The notes under the pieces were generated by a model. It saw nothing but the letters and a program-made list of their open reading frames with translations. It searched no databases and had not been told where the DNA came from. From the sequence record PV420835.1: DNA of 64,000 nucleotides; one strand, given 5' to 3'. Of the stretch, positions 35,062 to 37,706 are shown one piece after another; position 1 is the stretch's first letter; each line of letters opens with the position of its first letter. A program made the position numbers and the translations under genes. The stretch comes from Acinetobacter phage phiAB441.

Positions 35062-36044
35062 AGAAGTGGCAACAAACAGCTTTAGAATACAGAAAGCAAG
35101 GATTATCATCTCGTAAGATTTGTGATAAATTAGGATGGAGTCGAACTCGTAAAAGTACGATTAATTATTTCTTCGAACGTCATGATCGTGAACAACAAGC
35201 TGTAGATGCTTTGTTTAAATCAGCACAAGAAGAACCTAGCGTTAAGATTCTTTATTTAGATTTGGAATACACATTCTCTTTCTCAGGACATTTCCAGAAT
35301 TGGGGTGTTAACATTCCCCAAGAAGCTAAGATTCGTGAGAGTCATTTATTATCTTATGCATATGCTTGGAATAATGGTGAGATTAAAGGTGAAGTGTTAA
35401 AAGCAGAAGCTATTCAAAATGATCTACTACGCTCTATTGTTCAGAATGATGTCAAAACAGAGATTGATTTTGACATGACATTAAAGCTTTGGCACTTGTT
35501 AGATCAATGTGATATCGTTGTGGCTCACAATTGCCGAGGTTACGACATTAAGCAATTACATTCATTATTTTTGAAATATGGTTTGTGTTTACCTTCTCCG
35601 TATAAAGTTGTTGACACTTTAGCAATTGCTAAGAAGATGTTTAAGCTTCCGTTTAAGAGTTTGAAATATTTAGCTCAATATTTAAATGTCACACAAAAGA
35701 TTGATAATGGTGGTAATGAGTTTTGGCGTTTGGCTTCAATTGGTTATTCGGATGAAGTTTTAAATGAAATGCTCACTTACAACAAAGGTGACATTGAAAC
35801 GTTACGTGAAGTTTATTTGAAATTAAGGATGTATAATAATGATGGGGTTAATGTTGCTGCATTTAATGGTGGTGATGAGGTACGATGTCCTACTTGCTCT
35901 TCTAGTGACTTATCTAAGTTAAACAAACAGGCTACAACTACACGACATCAGTATGACGTTTATCGTTGTAATCATTGTCAAGCTTTAAGTCGTTCAGCGA
36001 ATGTTAAAGGTGAAGCTAAATATTTGGTTCATGTGAGTGGTTAA
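35058..36044 (+). CDS. DnaQ-like 3'-5' exonuclease with N-terminal HTH and C-terminal zinc ribbon
   Basis: Exo I YLDLEYT, Exo II VVAHNCRGYDIKQL, Exo III YNKGD; C-terminal CPTC...CNHC. Confidence 0.6.
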   Translation: MKKWQQTALEYRKQGLSSRKICDKLGWSRTRKSTINYFFERHDREQQAVDALFKSAQEEPSVKILYLDLEYTFSFSGHFQNWGVNIPQEAKIRESHLLSYAYAWNNGEIKGEVLKAEAIQNDLLRSIVQNDVKTEIDFDMTLKLWHLLDQCDIVVAHNCRGYDIKQLHSLFLKYGLCLPSPYKVVDTLAIAKKMFKLPFKSLKYLAQYLNVTQKIDNGGNEFWRLASIGYSDEVLNEMLTYNKGDIETLREVYLKLRMYNNDGVNVAAFNGGDEVRCPTCSSSDLSKLNKQATTTRHQYDVYRCNHCQALSRSANVKGEAKYLVHVSG

Positions 36045-36282
36045 TATGTTAAGTTATCAAGAAGAGAGAGAGCTTTGGCAGCTTATTAAAAAGTTTTCAA
36101 AATCTAAAGAGTTTAGACATACGGTTTCTGGTAGTATTTTATTAACAGAGTATTATCTGGATGGTGATGTCTTATCTATAGAGGAAATTGATAATCTTGT
36201 TTCGGTTTCTTTAAATGATCGTGAAATTTACGGATACATTGATGTGAAAAGTGCTTTGGAGAATCCACCTGATGAAAATTGA
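36037..36282 (+). CDS. hypothetical protein
   Basis: 81 aa, ATGA-type overlap. Confidence 0.4.
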   Translation: MVNMLSYQEERELWQLIKKFSKSKEFRHTVSGSILLTEYYLDGDVLSIEEIDNLVSVSLNDREIYGYIDVKSALENPPDEN

Positions 36283-36340
36283 TGTTAAAGAAAATTTGGT
36301 TTAATAATTGACCAAACAGTTTGAAATTTGAAAATATTGA

Positions 36341-36369
36341 TTGACATACTTTTCGGAGTGTGTCATTAT
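36341..36369 (+). promoter_or_regulatory. sigma70-like promoter
   Basis: TTGACA-17 nt-CATTAT; predicted start about 36377, just before the tRNA-like structure. Confidence 0.5.
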
Positions 36370-36382
36370 TGTTTTATTAAAT

Positions 36383-36470
36383 ATCCCGTGTCCCCTCAAG
36401 AGTCTTCTAAACTCTCGACATTAAATAGAGGGATGGTAGTCAAGGAGATCGTTACTTCCACGGGATGCCA
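36383..36470 (+). ncRNA. tRNA-like structured RNA element (non-canonical)
   Basis: 7-8 bp acceptor-like stem ATCCCGT(G)/(C)ACGGGAT followed by G-CCA; internal hairpin AGAGT-CTTCTAA-ACTCT resembling an anticodon arm (U33, UCU, A37); T-arm-like GGAG-ATCGTTA-CTTCC; no D-arm. Confidence 0.3.
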
Positions 36471-36487
36471 ATATTATAGGAGATTAT

Positions 36488-37021
36488 GTGACTGAAGAGT
36501 GGAGAGATGTTGTTGGATACGAAGAATATTTTATGATAAGTTCTTTTGGTAATGTATTTTCAAAAAGAACAAATAAGATATTAAAACAGAATACAACAGA
36601 CAGAGGTTATAAGACAGTAGCAACAAAAATTGGTGGAAGAAGTGGAAAAAATTTGTGCTTTAAAATTCACAGATTAGTTGCGGAAGCGTTTATAGAAAAT
36701 TTTGAAAATAAGCCTTATGTTAATCACATTAATTCAAAAAGAAATGATAACCGTGTTGAAAACTTGGAGTGGTGTACCGCAAAAGAGAACTTTGATCATG
36801 GTCTTTCATTTGGAAACATTAAAAACAACCAACTTTCAAAAAGTAGTTTCGTTGGAAGGAAGTTAAAAGATGATGATGTTATTAACATTCGAAATAATTA
36901 TGTGAAAGGTTGTCATAAAAACGGACTAAGAGCTTTAGCTAGAAAATACGGTGTTAATAAAAATACCATAAAAGCAGTTGTTAGCAGTGAGACATATAAA
37001 GATATAGGAGAAAGAGAGTGA
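36488..37021 (+). CDS. HNH homing endonuclease (HNH_3 with N-terminal NUMOD4-like module)
   Basis: WRDVVGYEEYFMISSFGNV ... VNHINSKRNDNRVENLEWCTAKEN; GTG start with TAGGAG RBS. Confidence 0.8.
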   Translation: MTEEWRDVVGYEEYFMISSFGNVFSKRTNKILKQNTTDRGYKTVATKIGGRSGKNLCFKIHRLVAEAFIENFENKPYVNHINSKRNDNRVENLEWCTAKENFDHGLSFGNIKNNQLSKSSFVGRKLKDDDVINIRNNYVKGCHKNGLRALARKYGVNKNTIKAVVSSETYKDIGERE

Positions 37022-37209
37022 CAGAAAAATTTTCAGAGATGACAGAAACAAGTAATGTAGAATTAACACCACAACAACAATATAAAAACATTTTAGAAAA
37101 AGCACTTCAATCAGCAATTTTATTAAACAAAATCATTCGTGGTAAATCTGTTGAAGAGTATTCAGATGAAGAATTATCTGAAGCAATTTTACACAATCTA
37201 ATGTTGTAA
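37018..37209 (+). CDS. hypothetical protein
   Basis: 63 aa. Confidence 0.4.
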   Translation: MTEKFSEMTETSNVELTPQQQYKNILEKALQSAILLNKIIRGKSVEEYSDEELSEAILHNLML

Positions 37210-37265
37210 CTAAAGAAGAAATTATTGAATGGATTTCTAATTACGGATTAGACACTATTGAGGAA

Positions 37266-37706
37266 TTGGATGGTCAAGTAGATGTAATCTATACACTCTC
37301 GTATTTACATTACTTAATTGAAGAAGCTAAACGTAGAGATTTTGTTGAAATTAACTATAAGCACACCAACTTAATTTTAATGTTAGGTAATGTTGTATTG
37401 TCAAATCTGTCTACCGATGACGATGGGTATTATGACACATTAGAGGAAGCTGTTGATCGAATTATTGAAAACAATATGTCTAAAGTGACAACTGATGTTG
37501 AATATTTTAAAACATGGGAATCACCAAAAGGTGAAAACTTAATTCCTAAGTCAACAGTTGTTGATGGAACACGTTATTATTTATTAGTTAATGCTGAAGG
37601 AAAGTGTCGTAAACCAGAACATTTTGTTGGTGTTGATTTAACAGATTTAGCAGAACGTTTAGATAAACAATGGAATGGGGTTACAAATGGCAAAGAAGAA
37701 AACTAA
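37266..37706 (+). CDS. putative MazG-like nucleotide pyrophosphohydrolase
   Basis: LIEEAKRR and TLEEAVDRIIEN resemble EExx(E/D) metal-binding helices of all-alpha NTP-PPases; weak. Confidence 0.35.
   Translation: MDGQVDVIYTLSYLHYLIEEAKRRDFVEINYKHTNLILMLGNVVLSNLSTDDDGYYDTLEEAVDRIIENNMSKVTTDVEYFKTWESPKGENLIPKSTVVDGTRYYLLVNAEGKCRKPEHFVGVDLTDLAERLDKQWNGVTNGKEEN

What the first reader, a model, noticed from the sequence alone, without database searches (positions are those of the whole stretch)
36341..36487. Promoter-proximal tRNA-like RNA structure ending in GCCA, sitting in the 5' leader of an HNH homing endonuclease gene
Immediately after a TTGACA-N17-CATTAT promoter, the transcript can fold into a tRNA-like shape:
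- a 7-8 bp acceptor-like stem (ATCCCGTG ... CACGGGAT) closed by G-CCA at 36467..36470
- a 5-bp hairpin with a 7-nt loop CTTCTAA (U33-like U, UCU, A37-like A)
- a GGAG/CTTCC T-arm-like hairpin with loop ATCGTTA

There is no D-arm, so it is not a canonical tRNA.

It lies 17 nt upstream of the HNH ORF (36488). It could be an RNase P/RNase Z processing signal, a tRNA-mimic regulator, or a decayed tRNA whose gene was invaded by the HEG.
Basis: seen in the sequence. Interest (0 to 1): 0.55.

Follow-up and report, generated by a model that had tools for sequence, protein, structure and literature searches.

The report
Rewired phage tRNA-Arg without a D-arm
The "tRNA-like leader" is a real, conserved 88-nt RNA gene: most likely a working arginine tRNA (anticodon UCU) whose D-arm is replaced by a pseudoknot, one of a widespread phage tRNA class that standard tRNA finders miss and that often travels with homing endonuclease genes.

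Summary
It is not a decayed tRNA or a mere mRNA leader.

- **Locus.** The window is an Acinetobacter myophage. Sister phages TaPaz and Ab3 carry a canonical tRNA-Arg(UCU) at the same locus, behind the same promoter. Here and in MD-2021a, an 88-nt RNA (36383-36470) plus an HNH gene replaces it. Phage B9 has a third allele: a different sequence with the same fold, plus a different HNH.
- **Family.** Pattern scans and a covariance model found more than 80 loci (56 distinct sequences) in unrelated phages, often inside tRNA arrays.
- **Structure.** Five helices covary. They are an 8-bp acceptor stem, a 4-bp T stem, a 5-bp anticodon stem, a 5-bp helix between the D-region strand and the enlarged variable region, and a 3-4-bp crossing helix that makes a pseudoknot. 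97.7% of cells are paired, and 22 of 25 pairs show changes on both sides.
- **tRNA role.** The anticodon loop is CUUCUAA. One member has CCU, and a sister group has GUA. Loci with this RNA never hold a canonical tRNA-Arg(UCU): 0/48 against 24/65. AGA is the phage's commonest Arg codon.
- **Detection.** ARAGORN and Rfam miss it, and I found no published description.

It most likely works as a non-canonical tRNA-Arg spread by homing endonucleases. Charging and decoding are untested.

The parts
36341..36369 (+). Sigma-70-type promoter: TTGACA, 17 nt, (TGt)CATTAT. The predicted start lies about 6-7 nt before the RNA's 5' end.
   Evidence: 10/12 match with a TG extension. It is 93-97% identical in TaPaz, Ab3, B9 and MD-2021a, always directly upstream of the tRNA or nc-tRNA. 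Function is inferred.
36342..36375 (+). Terminator-like hairpin (36342-36365) plus a T-rich tract, overlapping the promoter spacer.
   Evidence: The same bases are annotated as a rho-independent terminator in the B9 record. The role is not resolved.
36383..36470 (+). 88-nt non-canonical tRNA gene (nc-tRNA-Arg, anticodon UCU).
   Evidence: Covariance model R1 gives 97.9 bits. ARAGORN and Rfam are negative.
36383..36390 (+). Acceptor stem, 5' strand (8 nt). Pairs with 36459-36466.
   Evidence: All 8 pairs covary; 99.3% paired.
36393..36397 (+). Helix X, 5' strand (CCCTC). It is continuous through A36398 with the anticodon stem, and plays the part of D-stem strand 22-25.
   Evidence: Pairs with 36428-36432. 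97.8-98.6% paired, 3-4 covarying pairs. RNAalifold predicts it independently.
36399..36415 (+). Anticodon arm: 5-bp stem AGAGT/ACTCT and loop CTTCTAA (36404-36410). The anticodon TCT is at 36406-36408.
   Evidence: All 5 pairs covary. The loop is identical in 56/60 members.
36417..36419 (+). Helix V, 5' strand (GAC). This is the base of the enlarged variable region and pairs with 36439-36441 (GTC). It crosses helix X, making a pseudoknot.
   Evidence: 100% paired in A2 and 91% in A3. Pair types seen: GAC/GTC, GGC/GCC, AGC/GCT, CTC/GAG, GTC/GAC, ACGT/ACGT, CCTT/AAGG, CCGT/ACGG. This helix is not part of the model, so it was not fitted.
36428..36438 (+). Helix X, 3' strand (GAGGG, 36428-36432), followed by a D-loop-like A-T-G-G-T-A with GG at 36435-36436. 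Equivalent to tRNA positions 10-21, moved into the variable region.
   Evidence: G53 and G54 are invariant, and A51 is at least 90% conserved. An A follows GG in 49/54 Arg-type members. The mapping onto positions 10-21 is inference.
36439..36441 (+). Helix V, 3' strand (GTC).
   Evidence: See the entry for the helix V 5' strand.
36444..36458 (+). T arm: 4-bp stem GGAG/CTTC and loop ATCGTTA.
   Evidence: The stem covaries. The family loop consensus is TTCGATT or TTCAATT. The window's loop is unique among the 60 (A54/T58 in place of T54/A58).
36459..36470 (+). Acceptor stem 3' strand (36459-36466), discriminator G (36467), and encoded CCA (36468-36470).
   Evidence: CCA is encoded in 49/60 members. 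N73 is T 25, A 23, G 12, C 0.
36488..37021 (+). Free-standing homing-endonuclease-type gene (NUMOD4 + HNH_3, 177 aa). The RBS AGGAG is at 36478-36482.
36376..37001 (+). Cassette (nc-tRNA + HNH). It replaces the 91-bp canonical tRNA-Arg segment of TaPaz and the alternative nc-tRNA + HNH segment of B9.
   Evidence: Flanks are 87-97% identical, and homology breaks at these coordinates.

Best explanation
36383-36470 encodes a functional, structurally non-canonical arginine tRNA (anticodon UCU, reading AGA).

**Expression.** It is transcribed from the promoter at 36341-36369 on the same transcript as the HNH gene. RNase P would cut it out at the 5' end, and the 3' end would be trimmed to the encoded CCA.

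**Fold.** The usual 12-bp acceptor/T branch is kept, here as 8+4 bp, together with a normal anticodon arm. The D hairpin is absent. Instead, the strand after the acceptor (CCCTC) runs straight into the anticodon stem and pairs with GAGGG inside an enlarged variable region. That variable region is closed by a short helix (GAC/GTC), which makes a pseudoknot. GAGGG is followed by a D-loop-like A-N-G-G-(N)-A. In effect, tRNA positions 10-21 have been moved into the variable arm, and an L-shape with a GG/T-loop elbow remains possible.

**Function.** Host ArgRS would charge it through C35, U36, the A next to GG, and a tolerant N73. It would then supply the phage's most-used Arg codon.

**Spread.** The gene belongs to a widespread phage family that takes the tRNA-Arg(UCU) slot in phage tRNA sets. 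HNH homing endonuclease genes unusually often sit directly downstream. In this phage lineage they probably carried the cassette into the place of a canonical tRNA-Arg gene.

**Shown:** the helices, the conservation, the allele replacement, the mutual exclusion with canonical tRNA-Arg(UCU), and the HNH association.
**Inferred:** transcription, processing, the 3D fold, arginylation, decoding and homing.
For: 1. **Same locus, three alleles.** TaPaz and Ab3 have a canonical 77-nt tRNA-Arg(TCT) behind the same promoter. The window and MD-2021a have the 88-nt RNA plus a NUMOD4-HNH gene. B9 has a different sequence with the same fold plus another HNH. Flanks are 87-97% identical and the breakpoints are sharp.
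2. **Family and structure.** There are more than 80 loci and 56 distinct sequences.
   - MAFFT-only alignment A2: 99.4% of cells paired, 21/25 pairs changed on both sides, 0/500 shuffles as good.
   - Alignment A3: 97.7% paired, 22/25 pairs changed on both sides, against 39-53% paired when partners are slid.
   - RNAalifold predicts the four nested helices on its own.
   - The pseudoknot helix was neither selected for nor modelled, and it still covaries.
3. **tRNA hallmarks.**
   - 8+4 bp in the main group and 7+5 bp in a subgroup, so always 12 bp.
   - T-loop TTCGATT or TTCAATT in 49/60, and encoded CCA in 49/60.
   - Loop CUUCUAA in 56/60. I recall this as the loop of E. coli argU and T4 tRNA-Arg; I did not check that here.
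   - An anticodon-free scan gave UCU 37 times, CCU (also Arg) once and GUA twice.
4. **Slot complementarity.** 0/48 family loci have a canonical Arg(tct), against 24/65 other tRNA-bearing loci (p = 2e-7). With at least 8 tRNAs the figures are 0/11 against 17/39. AM24's 18-tRNA array has no Arg tRNA other than this RNA. Loci with the GUA version lack a canonical Tyr(gta), and L189 still keeps a canonical Arg(tct).
5. **Identity features** fit the bacterial ArgRS determinants (A20, C35, U/G36, A/G/U73; PMC9976931). C35 and U36 are invariant in the Arg-type members. An A follows GG in 49/54 Arg-type members but not in the Tyr type. N73 is U, A or G and never C. The Tyr-type members I read (L084, L175, L189/L207) all have A73.
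6. **Demand.** AGA is 41% of Arg codons in the window's ORFs.
7. **HNH link.** An HNH ORF starts 1-21 nt after 9/37 distinct nc-tRNAs, against 2-6 of 790 canonical tRNAs in the same contigs. T4 SegB is a precedent for homing endonucleases that move tRNA regions (PMC2330249, PMC13096335).
Against: - There are no expression, processing, aminoacylation or decoding data of any kind.
- The single-sequence fold is no more stable than shuffled sequence.
- The window copy has an atypical T loop (ATCGTTA), unique among the 60 members, and T-then-A rather than A directly after GG. This particular copy could therefore be less active.
- Most members were found with patterns that contain CTTCTAA, so the loop's invariance is partly due to how they were found. 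Only one search was free of the anticodon.
- The control loci for the mutual-exclusion and HNH tests are a convenience sample. The HNH profile was also built from HNHs that sit next to family members.
- If endonuclease cassettes simply overwrite canonical tRNA-Arg genes, mutual exclusion would arise even without functional equivalence.
- The 3D mapping onto tRNA positions 10-25 is inference.
Confidence: 0.68

Rival explanations
1. A tRNA mimic or decoy, or a nuclease-resistant tRNA, used against defence. The RNA presents a tRNA-Arg(UCU) anticodon loop and acceptor, but has a rebuilt D/variable core. That could let it soak up, or escape, a host tRNA-cleaving defence nuclease. Its main value would be anti-defence rather than codon supply. 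The 'resistant but still decoding' version is compatible with the best explanation.
For: Phage tRNAs are established counter-measures to tRNA-cleaving defences. [quoted passage not shown] The same rebuilt variable/D core occurs here in Tyr(GUA) versions. The fold is confined to phages in my scans, with no true hit in the genome-contig scan.
Against: No nuclease that targets tRNA-Arg(UCU) was identified here. The 12-bp acceptor/T branch, CCA, T loop and ArgRS identity features are all conserved, and a pure decoy would not need them. The anticodon-specific complementarity with canonical tRNAs points to decoding.
Confidence: 0.15
2. A cis-acting 5' leader of the HNH mRNA. On this view the tRNA-like fold is only an RNase P processing or stabilising signal, or a regulator of HNH expression.
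For: It lies 17 nt upstream of the HNH start on the same predicted transcript. HNH ORFs start 1-21 nt after 9/37 distinct family members.
Against: About three quarters of members have no HNH downstream, and many are flanked within 2-10 nt by ordinary tRNA genes (L010, L013, L071, L084, L086, L126, L175). YMC13/03/R2096 has the RNA without the HNH that AM24 carries. The HNHs belong to unrelated subfamilies. 80 homologues of the window's HNH have no such RNA within 2.5 kb. A processing signal would not need an invariant Arg anticodon loop.
Confidence: 0.05
3. A tRNA with another amino-acid identity, for example one charged by SerRS or another class II-arm-recognising enzyme, so that AGA is recoded in these phages.
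For: The 8/4 acceptor/T branch and the enlarged variable region recall tRNA-Sec and allo-tRNAs, some of which carry mismatched anticodons (PMC5389517). Other members give sub-threshold tRNA-Sec hits of 27-29 bits.
Against: The variable helix is only 3-4 bp and its loop is tied up in a pseudoknot. N73 varies among U, A and G, whereas (from my memory of the identity rules) SerRS, LeuRS and TyrRS depend on a fixed N73. The one anticodon switch within the Arg-type group is to CCU, which is also Arg. An A sits beside GG as in tRNA-Arg. This RNA replaces a bona fide tRNA-Arg in sister phages.
Confidence: 0.05
4. A decayed tRNA pseudogene left behind after a homing endonuclease gene invaded a tRNA-Arg gene.
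For: ARAGORN and Rfam do not recognise it. The window copy has an odd T loop. Sister phages have an intact tRNA-Arg at this locus.
Against: The same architecture is kept by compensatory substitutions in 56 distinct sequences from unrelated phages, including jumbo phage contigs of 250-425 kb. The window copy scores 97.9 bits, among the best in the family.
Confidence: 0.02

Closest known systems
Canonical bacterial and phage tRNA-Arg(UCU) (E. coli argU, T4 tRNA-Arg, TaPaz tRNA-Arg)
   Same: Same genomic slot and promoter as the TaPaz and Ab3 tRNA-Arg. The same 7-nt anticodon loop CUUCUAA as argU and T4 (from memory). A 12-bp acceptor/T branch, discriminator plus CCA, a TΨC-type loop in most members, a GG motif, and an adjacent A.
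   Different: There is no D hairpin. The partner strand of the D stem and the D-loop-like GG segment lie 3' of the anticodon arm, inside an enlarged variable region. The core is pseudoknotted. The branch is 8/4 rather than 7/5, and the RNA is 88 nt long. ARAGORN and the Rfam tRNA model do not detect it.
8/4 and 9/3 tRNAs (allo-tRNAs, tRNA-Sec-like, phage 8/4 tRNA-Ser and tRNA-His; Mukai et al. 2016, PMC5389517)
   Same: An 8-bp acceptor plus a 4-bp T stem (12 bp in all). An enlarged variable region. Found in phage tRNA clusters. Weak sub-threshold similarity to the Rfam tRNA-Sec model.
   Different: Those tRNAs keep a D arm with a long stem and a tetraloop, and have a true long variable hairpin. 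Here the D hairpin is gone, and the variable loop supplies one strand of the D-stem equivalent. The anticodons are Arg (UCU/CCU) and Tyr.
D-arm-lacking mitochondrial tRNA-Ser(AGY/AGN) of metazoa
   Same: No D hairpin. The anticodon reads AGN codons (UCU in nematodes, from memory).
   Different: Those are miniaturised (about 55-65 nt) organellar tRNAs with a simple replacement loop and co-evolved factors (PMC4013460, PMC1636415; titles and abstracts). This RNA is longer than a normal tRNA, rebuilds the D stem in trans, and would have to work with an ordinary bacterial translation apparatus.
Homing-endonuclease-linked tRNA regions (T4/T6 SegB)
   Same: A free-standing endonuclease gene embedded among tRNA genes. 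Presence/absence alleles between sister phages. The flanking tRNA genes are co-inherited with the endonuclease gene (PMC2330249, PMC13096335).
   Different: SegB is a GIY-YIG enzyme; here the enzymes are HNH_3, HNH_2 and NUMOD4 types from several unrelated subfamilies. Cleavage sites are unknown. The linked tRNA is structurally non-canonical.

Membership tests
tRNA (canonical cloverleaf, Rfam RF00005 / ARAGORN definition) | Acceptor stem closed by discriminator + CCA | tested here: met
   8 bp + G + CCA at 36383-36390 / 36459-36470. All 8 pairs covary. It is 8 bp rather than 7.
tRNA (canonical cloverleaf, Rfam RF00005 / ARAGORN definition) | 5-bp anticodon stem with a 7-nt loop, U33 and purine 37 | tested here: met
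   AGAGT-CTTCTAA-ACTCT.
tRNA (canonical cloverleaf, Rfam RF00005 / ARAGORN definition) | T arm with a T-Psi-C-R-A loop; 12-bp acceptor + T branch | tested here: met
   The family has TTCGATT or TTCAATT in 49/60, with an 8+4 or 7+5 bp branch. The window copy deviates in the loop (ATCGTTA) but keeps the 4-bp stem.
tRNA (canonical cloverleaf, Rfam RF00005 / ARAGORN definition) | D arm: a hairpin between the acceptor and anticodon stems | tested here: not met
   Only 8 nt lie between the acceptor and anticodon stems. Their partner strand lies 3' of the anticodon arm.
tRNA (canonical cloverleaf, Rfam RF00005 / ARAGORN definition) | Recognised by tRNA gene finders or the covariance model | tested here: not met
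   ARAGORN finds 0 genes in the window. Rfam gives no hit even at E <= 10. tRNAscan-SE left it unannotated in the KissB record.
tRNA (canonical cloverleaf, Rfam RF00005 / ARAGORN definition) | Aminoacylated and used by the ribosome | not testable with these tools
   Only indirect evidence: slot complementarity, identity features, and AGA usage.
8/4 allo-tRNA / tRNA-Sec-like tRNAs (PMC5389517) | 8-bp acceptor + 4-bp T stem | tested here: met
8/4 allo-tRNA / tRNA-Sec-like tRNAs (PMC5389517) | Long D stem with a tetraloop, and a long variable hairpin | tested here: not met
   There is no D hairpin. The variable helix is only 3-4 bp and its loop is pseudoknotted. The Rfam tRNA-Sec model gives no hit for the window copy and 27-29 bits for other members, against a 47-bit threshold.
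Free-standing homing endonuclease cassette (SegB-like behaviour) | An endonuclease gene present or absent between otherwise collinear sister genomes, with flanking markers co-replaced | tested here: met
   Window/MD-2021a, TaPaz/Ab3 and B9 carry three alleles with sharp borders. AM24 and YMC13/03/R2096 differ in the same way.
Free-standing homing endonuclease cassette (SegB-like behaviour) | Site-specific cleavage of the endonuclease-less allele, and biased inheritance in co-infection | not testable with these tools
   Needs enzyme assays and phage crosses.

The most novel reading that the evidence does not exclude
This is one member of a previously undescribed architectural class of working tRNAs. 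The D-stem 5' strand and the D loop (positions 10-21) have been transposed into the variable arm, giving a pseudoknotted core that still fits the bacterial RNase P, ArgRS (or TyrRS), EF-Tu and ribosome. The class is confined to phages, covers at least Arg(UCU/CCU) and Tyr(GUA), is invisible to every standard tRNA finder, and spreads between unrelated phages as cargo of HNH homing endonucleases. It may spread this way because the rearranged gene or RNA escapes a nuclease, either the endonuclease itself or a host tRNA-cleaving defence.
Probability: 0.45. Interest if true: 0.88.

Novelty: new variant of a known kind. Interest (0 to 1): 0.8.

Why it matters
If these RNAs decode, three things follow.

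- **The cloverleaf is not obligatory.** Even in a bacterial cytoplasm, one strand of the D stem and the D loop could be supplied from the variable region. That gives a natural test case for what RNase P, the synthetases, EF-Tu and the ribosome really require of the tRNA core. It would also be a new scaffold for engineered orthogonal tRNAs.
- **Phage tRNA counts are too low.** Phages annotated as having no tRNA (B9, MD-2021a, this one), or no tRNA-Arg (AM24-like phages), in fact carry one. That affects studies of codon usage, host range and anti-defence.
- **The link to homing endonucleases is testable.** The tight association suggests how a radically rearranged essential-type gene can spread and replace its canonical counterpart.

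Tried and rejected
- **ARAGORN, and Rfam at gathering and permissive thresholds, on the window:** nothing at the locus. I treated this as a limit of the models, not as evidence of absence.
- **Single-sequence folding:** z-scores near 0, so it is not informative. The pseudoknot cannot be predicted this way.
- **Intron-containing or permuted canonical tRNA:** rejected. Removing any one segment leaves too little sequence for both a D arm and an anticodon arm, and both crossing helices covary.
- **The HNH and the RNA as a co-evolved pair (guide or partner RNA):** rejected. The HNHs next to different members are unrelated beyond the catalytic motif. In addition, 80 homologues of the window's HNH have no such RNA nearby.
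- **Bacterial or prophage copies:** the genome-contig scan with the core pattern gave only 5 chance matches in coding sequence. That pattern was narrow, so absence from bacteria is not proven.
- **False positives from the pattern scans.**
  - The pattern mostly hit unrelated DNA: L034-L055 gave no model hits.
  - Many one search hits were canonical tRNA-Glu genes whose D arm contains CTTCTAA, or were coding sequence.
- **Self-immunity idea:** I asked whether HNH-linked copies share an altered T loop. There is no consistent pattern. Only the window/MD-2021a copy is unusual.
- **Literature:** 9 searches found no description of a phage tRNA with this core. The library is incomplete, so the claim of novelty is provisional.
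Full report
**1. Observation.**

- TTGACA-N17-CATTAT lies at 36341-36369. It is the best promoter-like site in the region (10/12 with a TG extension).
- An 8-bp acceptor-like stem, ATCCCGTG/CACGGGAT, is followed by G-CCA ending at 36470.
- A 5-bp hairpin carries the loop CTTCTAA.
- A GGAG/CTTC hairpin carries the loop ATCGTTA.
- An ORF starts with GTG at 36488, 17 nt downstream. It encodes a NUMOD4 + HNH_3 protein.

ARAGORN finds no tRNA anywhere in the window. Rfam gives nothing at gathering thresholds and nothing relevant at E <= 10. Single-sequence folding recovers the acceptor stem, the anticodon hairpin and a further helix (CCCTC/GAGGG), but it is no more stable than shuffled sequence (z = +0.22 and -0.26). 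The sequence alone therefore cannot decide the question.

**2. The locus in relatives.**

The window is an Acinetobacter baumannii myophage of the TaPaz / B9 / Ab3 / MD-2021a group. The promoter block (window 36306-36375) is 93-97% identical in all of them, and homology resumes at 37002, at the RBS of the next gene. Three alleles lie between these borders.
- TaPaz and Ab3 have a canonical 77-nt tRNA-Arg(TCT) and no HNH.
- The window and MD-2021a have the 88-nt RNA plus the NUMOD4-HNH gene.
- B9 has a different 85-nt sequence plus a different HNH_3 gene.

The B9 RNA shares almost no stem sequence with the window RNA, yet it has the same architecture and the same loop CTTCTAA. This was the first sign of compensatory evolution.

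**3. A large family.**

The 50-nt core of the window RNA also matches AM24-like Acinetobacter phages and a marine Zobellviridae phage at 83-90% identity. In AM24 and KissB it sits inside the tRNA array. Pattern scans of viral and metagenome contigs and a covariance model (R1) then recovered more than 80 loci. They yield 56 distinct sequences among the best 60. Some lie on contigs of 250-425 kb. The one scan of bacterial genomes, made with a narrow pattern, gave only chance matches.

**4. Structure.**

I first used a sequence-only MAFFT alignment of 14 diverse members (A2). Its columns equal window positions 36383-36470. The five-helix model has 99.4% of cells paired and 21 of 25 pairs changed on both sides. 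None of 500 shuffles matched it, and slid controls gave 40-47%. RNAalifold independently predicts the four nested helices.

On 60 model-aligned sequences (A3), 97.7% of cells are paired and 22 of 25 pairs are changed on both sides. Slid controls gave 39-53%.

My parser had selected for intact acceptor, anticodon and T stems. It had not selected for helix X or helix V.
- Helix X (columns 11-15 with 46-50; window 36393-36397 with 36428-36432) is 98-99% paired and has 3-4 covarying pairs.
- Helix V (columns 35-37 with 57-59; window 36417-36419 with 36439-36441) is not in the model at all. It appears as GAC/GTC, GGC/GCC, AGC/GCT, CTC/GAG, GTC/GAC, ACGT/ACGT, CCTT/AAGG, CCGT/ACGG and CGAC/GTCG.

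X and V cross, so the core is a pseudoknot.

**5. Reading the fold (inference).**

The 5' strand of X runs through one A directly into the 5' strand of the anticodon stem. In a normal tRNA, positions 22-25, 26 and 27-31 do the same. The 3' strand of X is followed by A-N-G-G-(N)-A, which looks like positions 10-13 followed by A14 ... G18 G19 A20/A21. The GG is invariant, and the A after X is at least 90% conserved.

The segment equivalent to tRNA positions 10-21 thus appears to have moved from its normal place into the loop of a short variable arm (helix V). The acceptor/T branch stays at 12 bp: 8+4 in the main group, and 7+5 in a subgroup whose helix X is 4 bp. An L-shape with a GG/T-loop elbow is geometrically plausible, but it is not shown.

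**6. Is it a tRNA in function?**

- **Anticodon.** The loop is CTTCTAA in 56/60. A scan that did not constrain the anticodon returned UCU 37 times, CCU (also Arg) once and GUA (Tyr) twice.
- **Slot complementarity.** None of 48 tRNA-bearing family loci contains a canonical tRNA-Arg(tct), against 24 of 65 other loci (p = 2e-7). With at least 8 tRNAs the figures are 0/11 against 17/39 (p = 0.009). L084 (30 tRNAs) and L175 carry both the Arg and the Tyr versions of the fold and lack canonical Arg(tct) and Tyr(gta). L189 carries only the Tyr version, lacks canonical Tyr(gta), and keeps canonical Arg(tct). AM24's array of 18 annotated tRNAs has no Arg tRNA other than this RNA.
- **Identity.** Bacterial ArgRS determinants are A20, C35, U/G36 and A/G/U73 (PMC9976931). 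The Arg-type members have invariant C35 and U36. An A follows GG directly in 49/54, and T-then-A in the Acinetobacter copies. N73 is U 25, A 23, G 12, C 0. The Tyr-type members I read (L084, L175, L189/L207) all have A73 and lack that A.
- **Demand.** AGA is the commonest Arg codon in the window's long ORFs (41%, 15.8 per 1000).

Together these points make a decoding tRNA-Arg the most economical reading. None of them is direct evidence of charging or decoding.

**7. The HNH connection.**

An HNH-family ORF starts 1-21 nt after the RNA in the window/MD-2021a, B9, AM24/KissB, L019/L018, L058, L063 and L138 (HNH_3) and in L086 (HNH_2). An endonuclease VII gene lies 328 nt downstream in L102.

Using a local HNH profile, 9 of 37 distinct family members have such an ORF, against 2 of 790 canonical tRNAs in the same contigs. 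At permissive thresholds, or with a generic motif, the canonical count is 4-6. The profile is biased towards the family's HNHs, but the contrast is large.

The HNHs are not close relatives of one another. Eighty viral homologues of the window's HNH have no such RNA within 2.5 kb. YMC13/03/R2096 has the RNA followed 2 nt later by tRNA-Thr, whereas AM24 has an HNH inserted between them.

So the RNA is not a dedicated leader or partner of the HNH. Instead, various free-standing endonuclease genes have repeatedly settled just downstream of it. In the TaPaz group, the RNA + HNH unit has replaced a canonical tRNA-Arg with sharp borders. This is the pattern expected from homing with co-conversion of flanking markers, as shown for T4/T6 SegB in tRNA clusters (PMC2330249, PMC13096335). 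I could not test whether the rearranged gene is favoured because it escapes cleavage by the endonuclease or by a host tRNA nuclease.

**8. Comparison with known kinds.**

It works like a tRNA-Arg(UCU) but fails the cloverleaf definition, because it has no D hairpin and is not recognised by any tRNA model. It shares the 8/4 branch with the phage and bacterial 8/4 tRNAs of Mukai et al., but those keep a D arm and a true long variable hairpin. Rfam's tRNA-Sec model gives only sub-threshold scores of 27-29 bits for other members and nothing for the window copy. D-armless mitochondrial tRNA-Ser molecules are miniaturised organellar RNAs that rely on co-evolved factors (abstracts). This RNA is larger than a normal tRNA and rebuilds the D stem in trans. 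Nine literature searches found no description of such a phage tRNA, but the library is incomplete.

**9. Verdict.**

It needs replacing with this: a conserved, probably functional, pseudoknotted non-canonical tRNA-Arg(UCU), belonging to a widespread phage class that annotation tools miss.

I rate it a new variant of a known kind. Interest is high because the fold is unexpected for a bacterial-type translation system and can be tested directly. The functional claim still rests only on comparative evidence.

Noticed in passing
window 37018-37706: The MazG-like NTP pyrophosphohydrolase gene downstream of the HNH is frameshifted relative to TaPaz_108 and MD-2021a. A 1-nt deletion near 37187-37190 (GCAAT-TTT against GCAATCTTC) puts residues 1-58 and 58-228 in different frames. 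It could be a pseudogene, a sequencing error in a T run, or a programmed shift.
   Followed up: partly
window 36342-36375: The promoter spacer is also a 10-bp terminator-like hairpin followed by a T-rich tract. The same bases are annotated as a rho-independent terminator in phage B9. One element may both end the upstream operon and start the tRNA/HNH transcript.
   Followed up: partly
L084:3908-3997, L175:3991-4082(-), L189:8186-8275(-), L207:11050-11139: The same D-arm-less pseudoknotted fold occurs with anticodon GUA (Tyr) and A73. ARAGORN misses these copies, and they sit in arrays that lack a canonical tRNA-Tyr.
   Followed up: partly
L181:2627-2713(-): A family member with anticodon CCU (Arg, AGG) instead of UCU.
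   Followed up: no
L133:235-317, L163:8277-8361, L141:3449-3540(-), L117:1052-1135(-), L118:7119-7206, L124:86-170(-): A second subgroup of UCU RNAs with a 7/5 acceptor/T branch and a 4-bp D-stem-equivalent helix. Model scores are lower (32-46 bits). It may be a separate lineage of the same architecture.
   Followed up: partly
L109:9789-9871; L056:511-593(-): Two further ARAGORN-negative tRNA-like genes lie in phage tRNA arrays. One has loop CTACGAA (ACG, Arg) and the other has UCU. Both have reduced D regions. I did not establish their structure.
   Followed up: no
L005:840-926 (phage KissB): An unannotated tRNA-like gene with loop CTTGAAA (UGA, Ser) and a long variable arm. It gives a sub-threshold tRNA-Sec hit (31 bits) and is missed by ARAGORN and by the record's tRNAscan-SE annotation. 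AM24 has an annotated tRNA-Ser(TGA) in its array.
   Followed up: no
window 36448-36454: The window/MD-2021a T loop is ATCGTTA, unique among 60 family members. Positions 54 and 58 are swapped (A54/T58 in place of T54/A58), which could keep the reverse-Hoogsteen pair. The reason is unknown.
   Followed up: partly
window 36037-36282: An 81-aa ORF with no Pfam match lies between the exonuclease gene and the promoter. The segment aligns to Ab3 but not to TaPaz or B9, so this stretch just upstream of the tRNA cassette is also variable.
   Followed up: no
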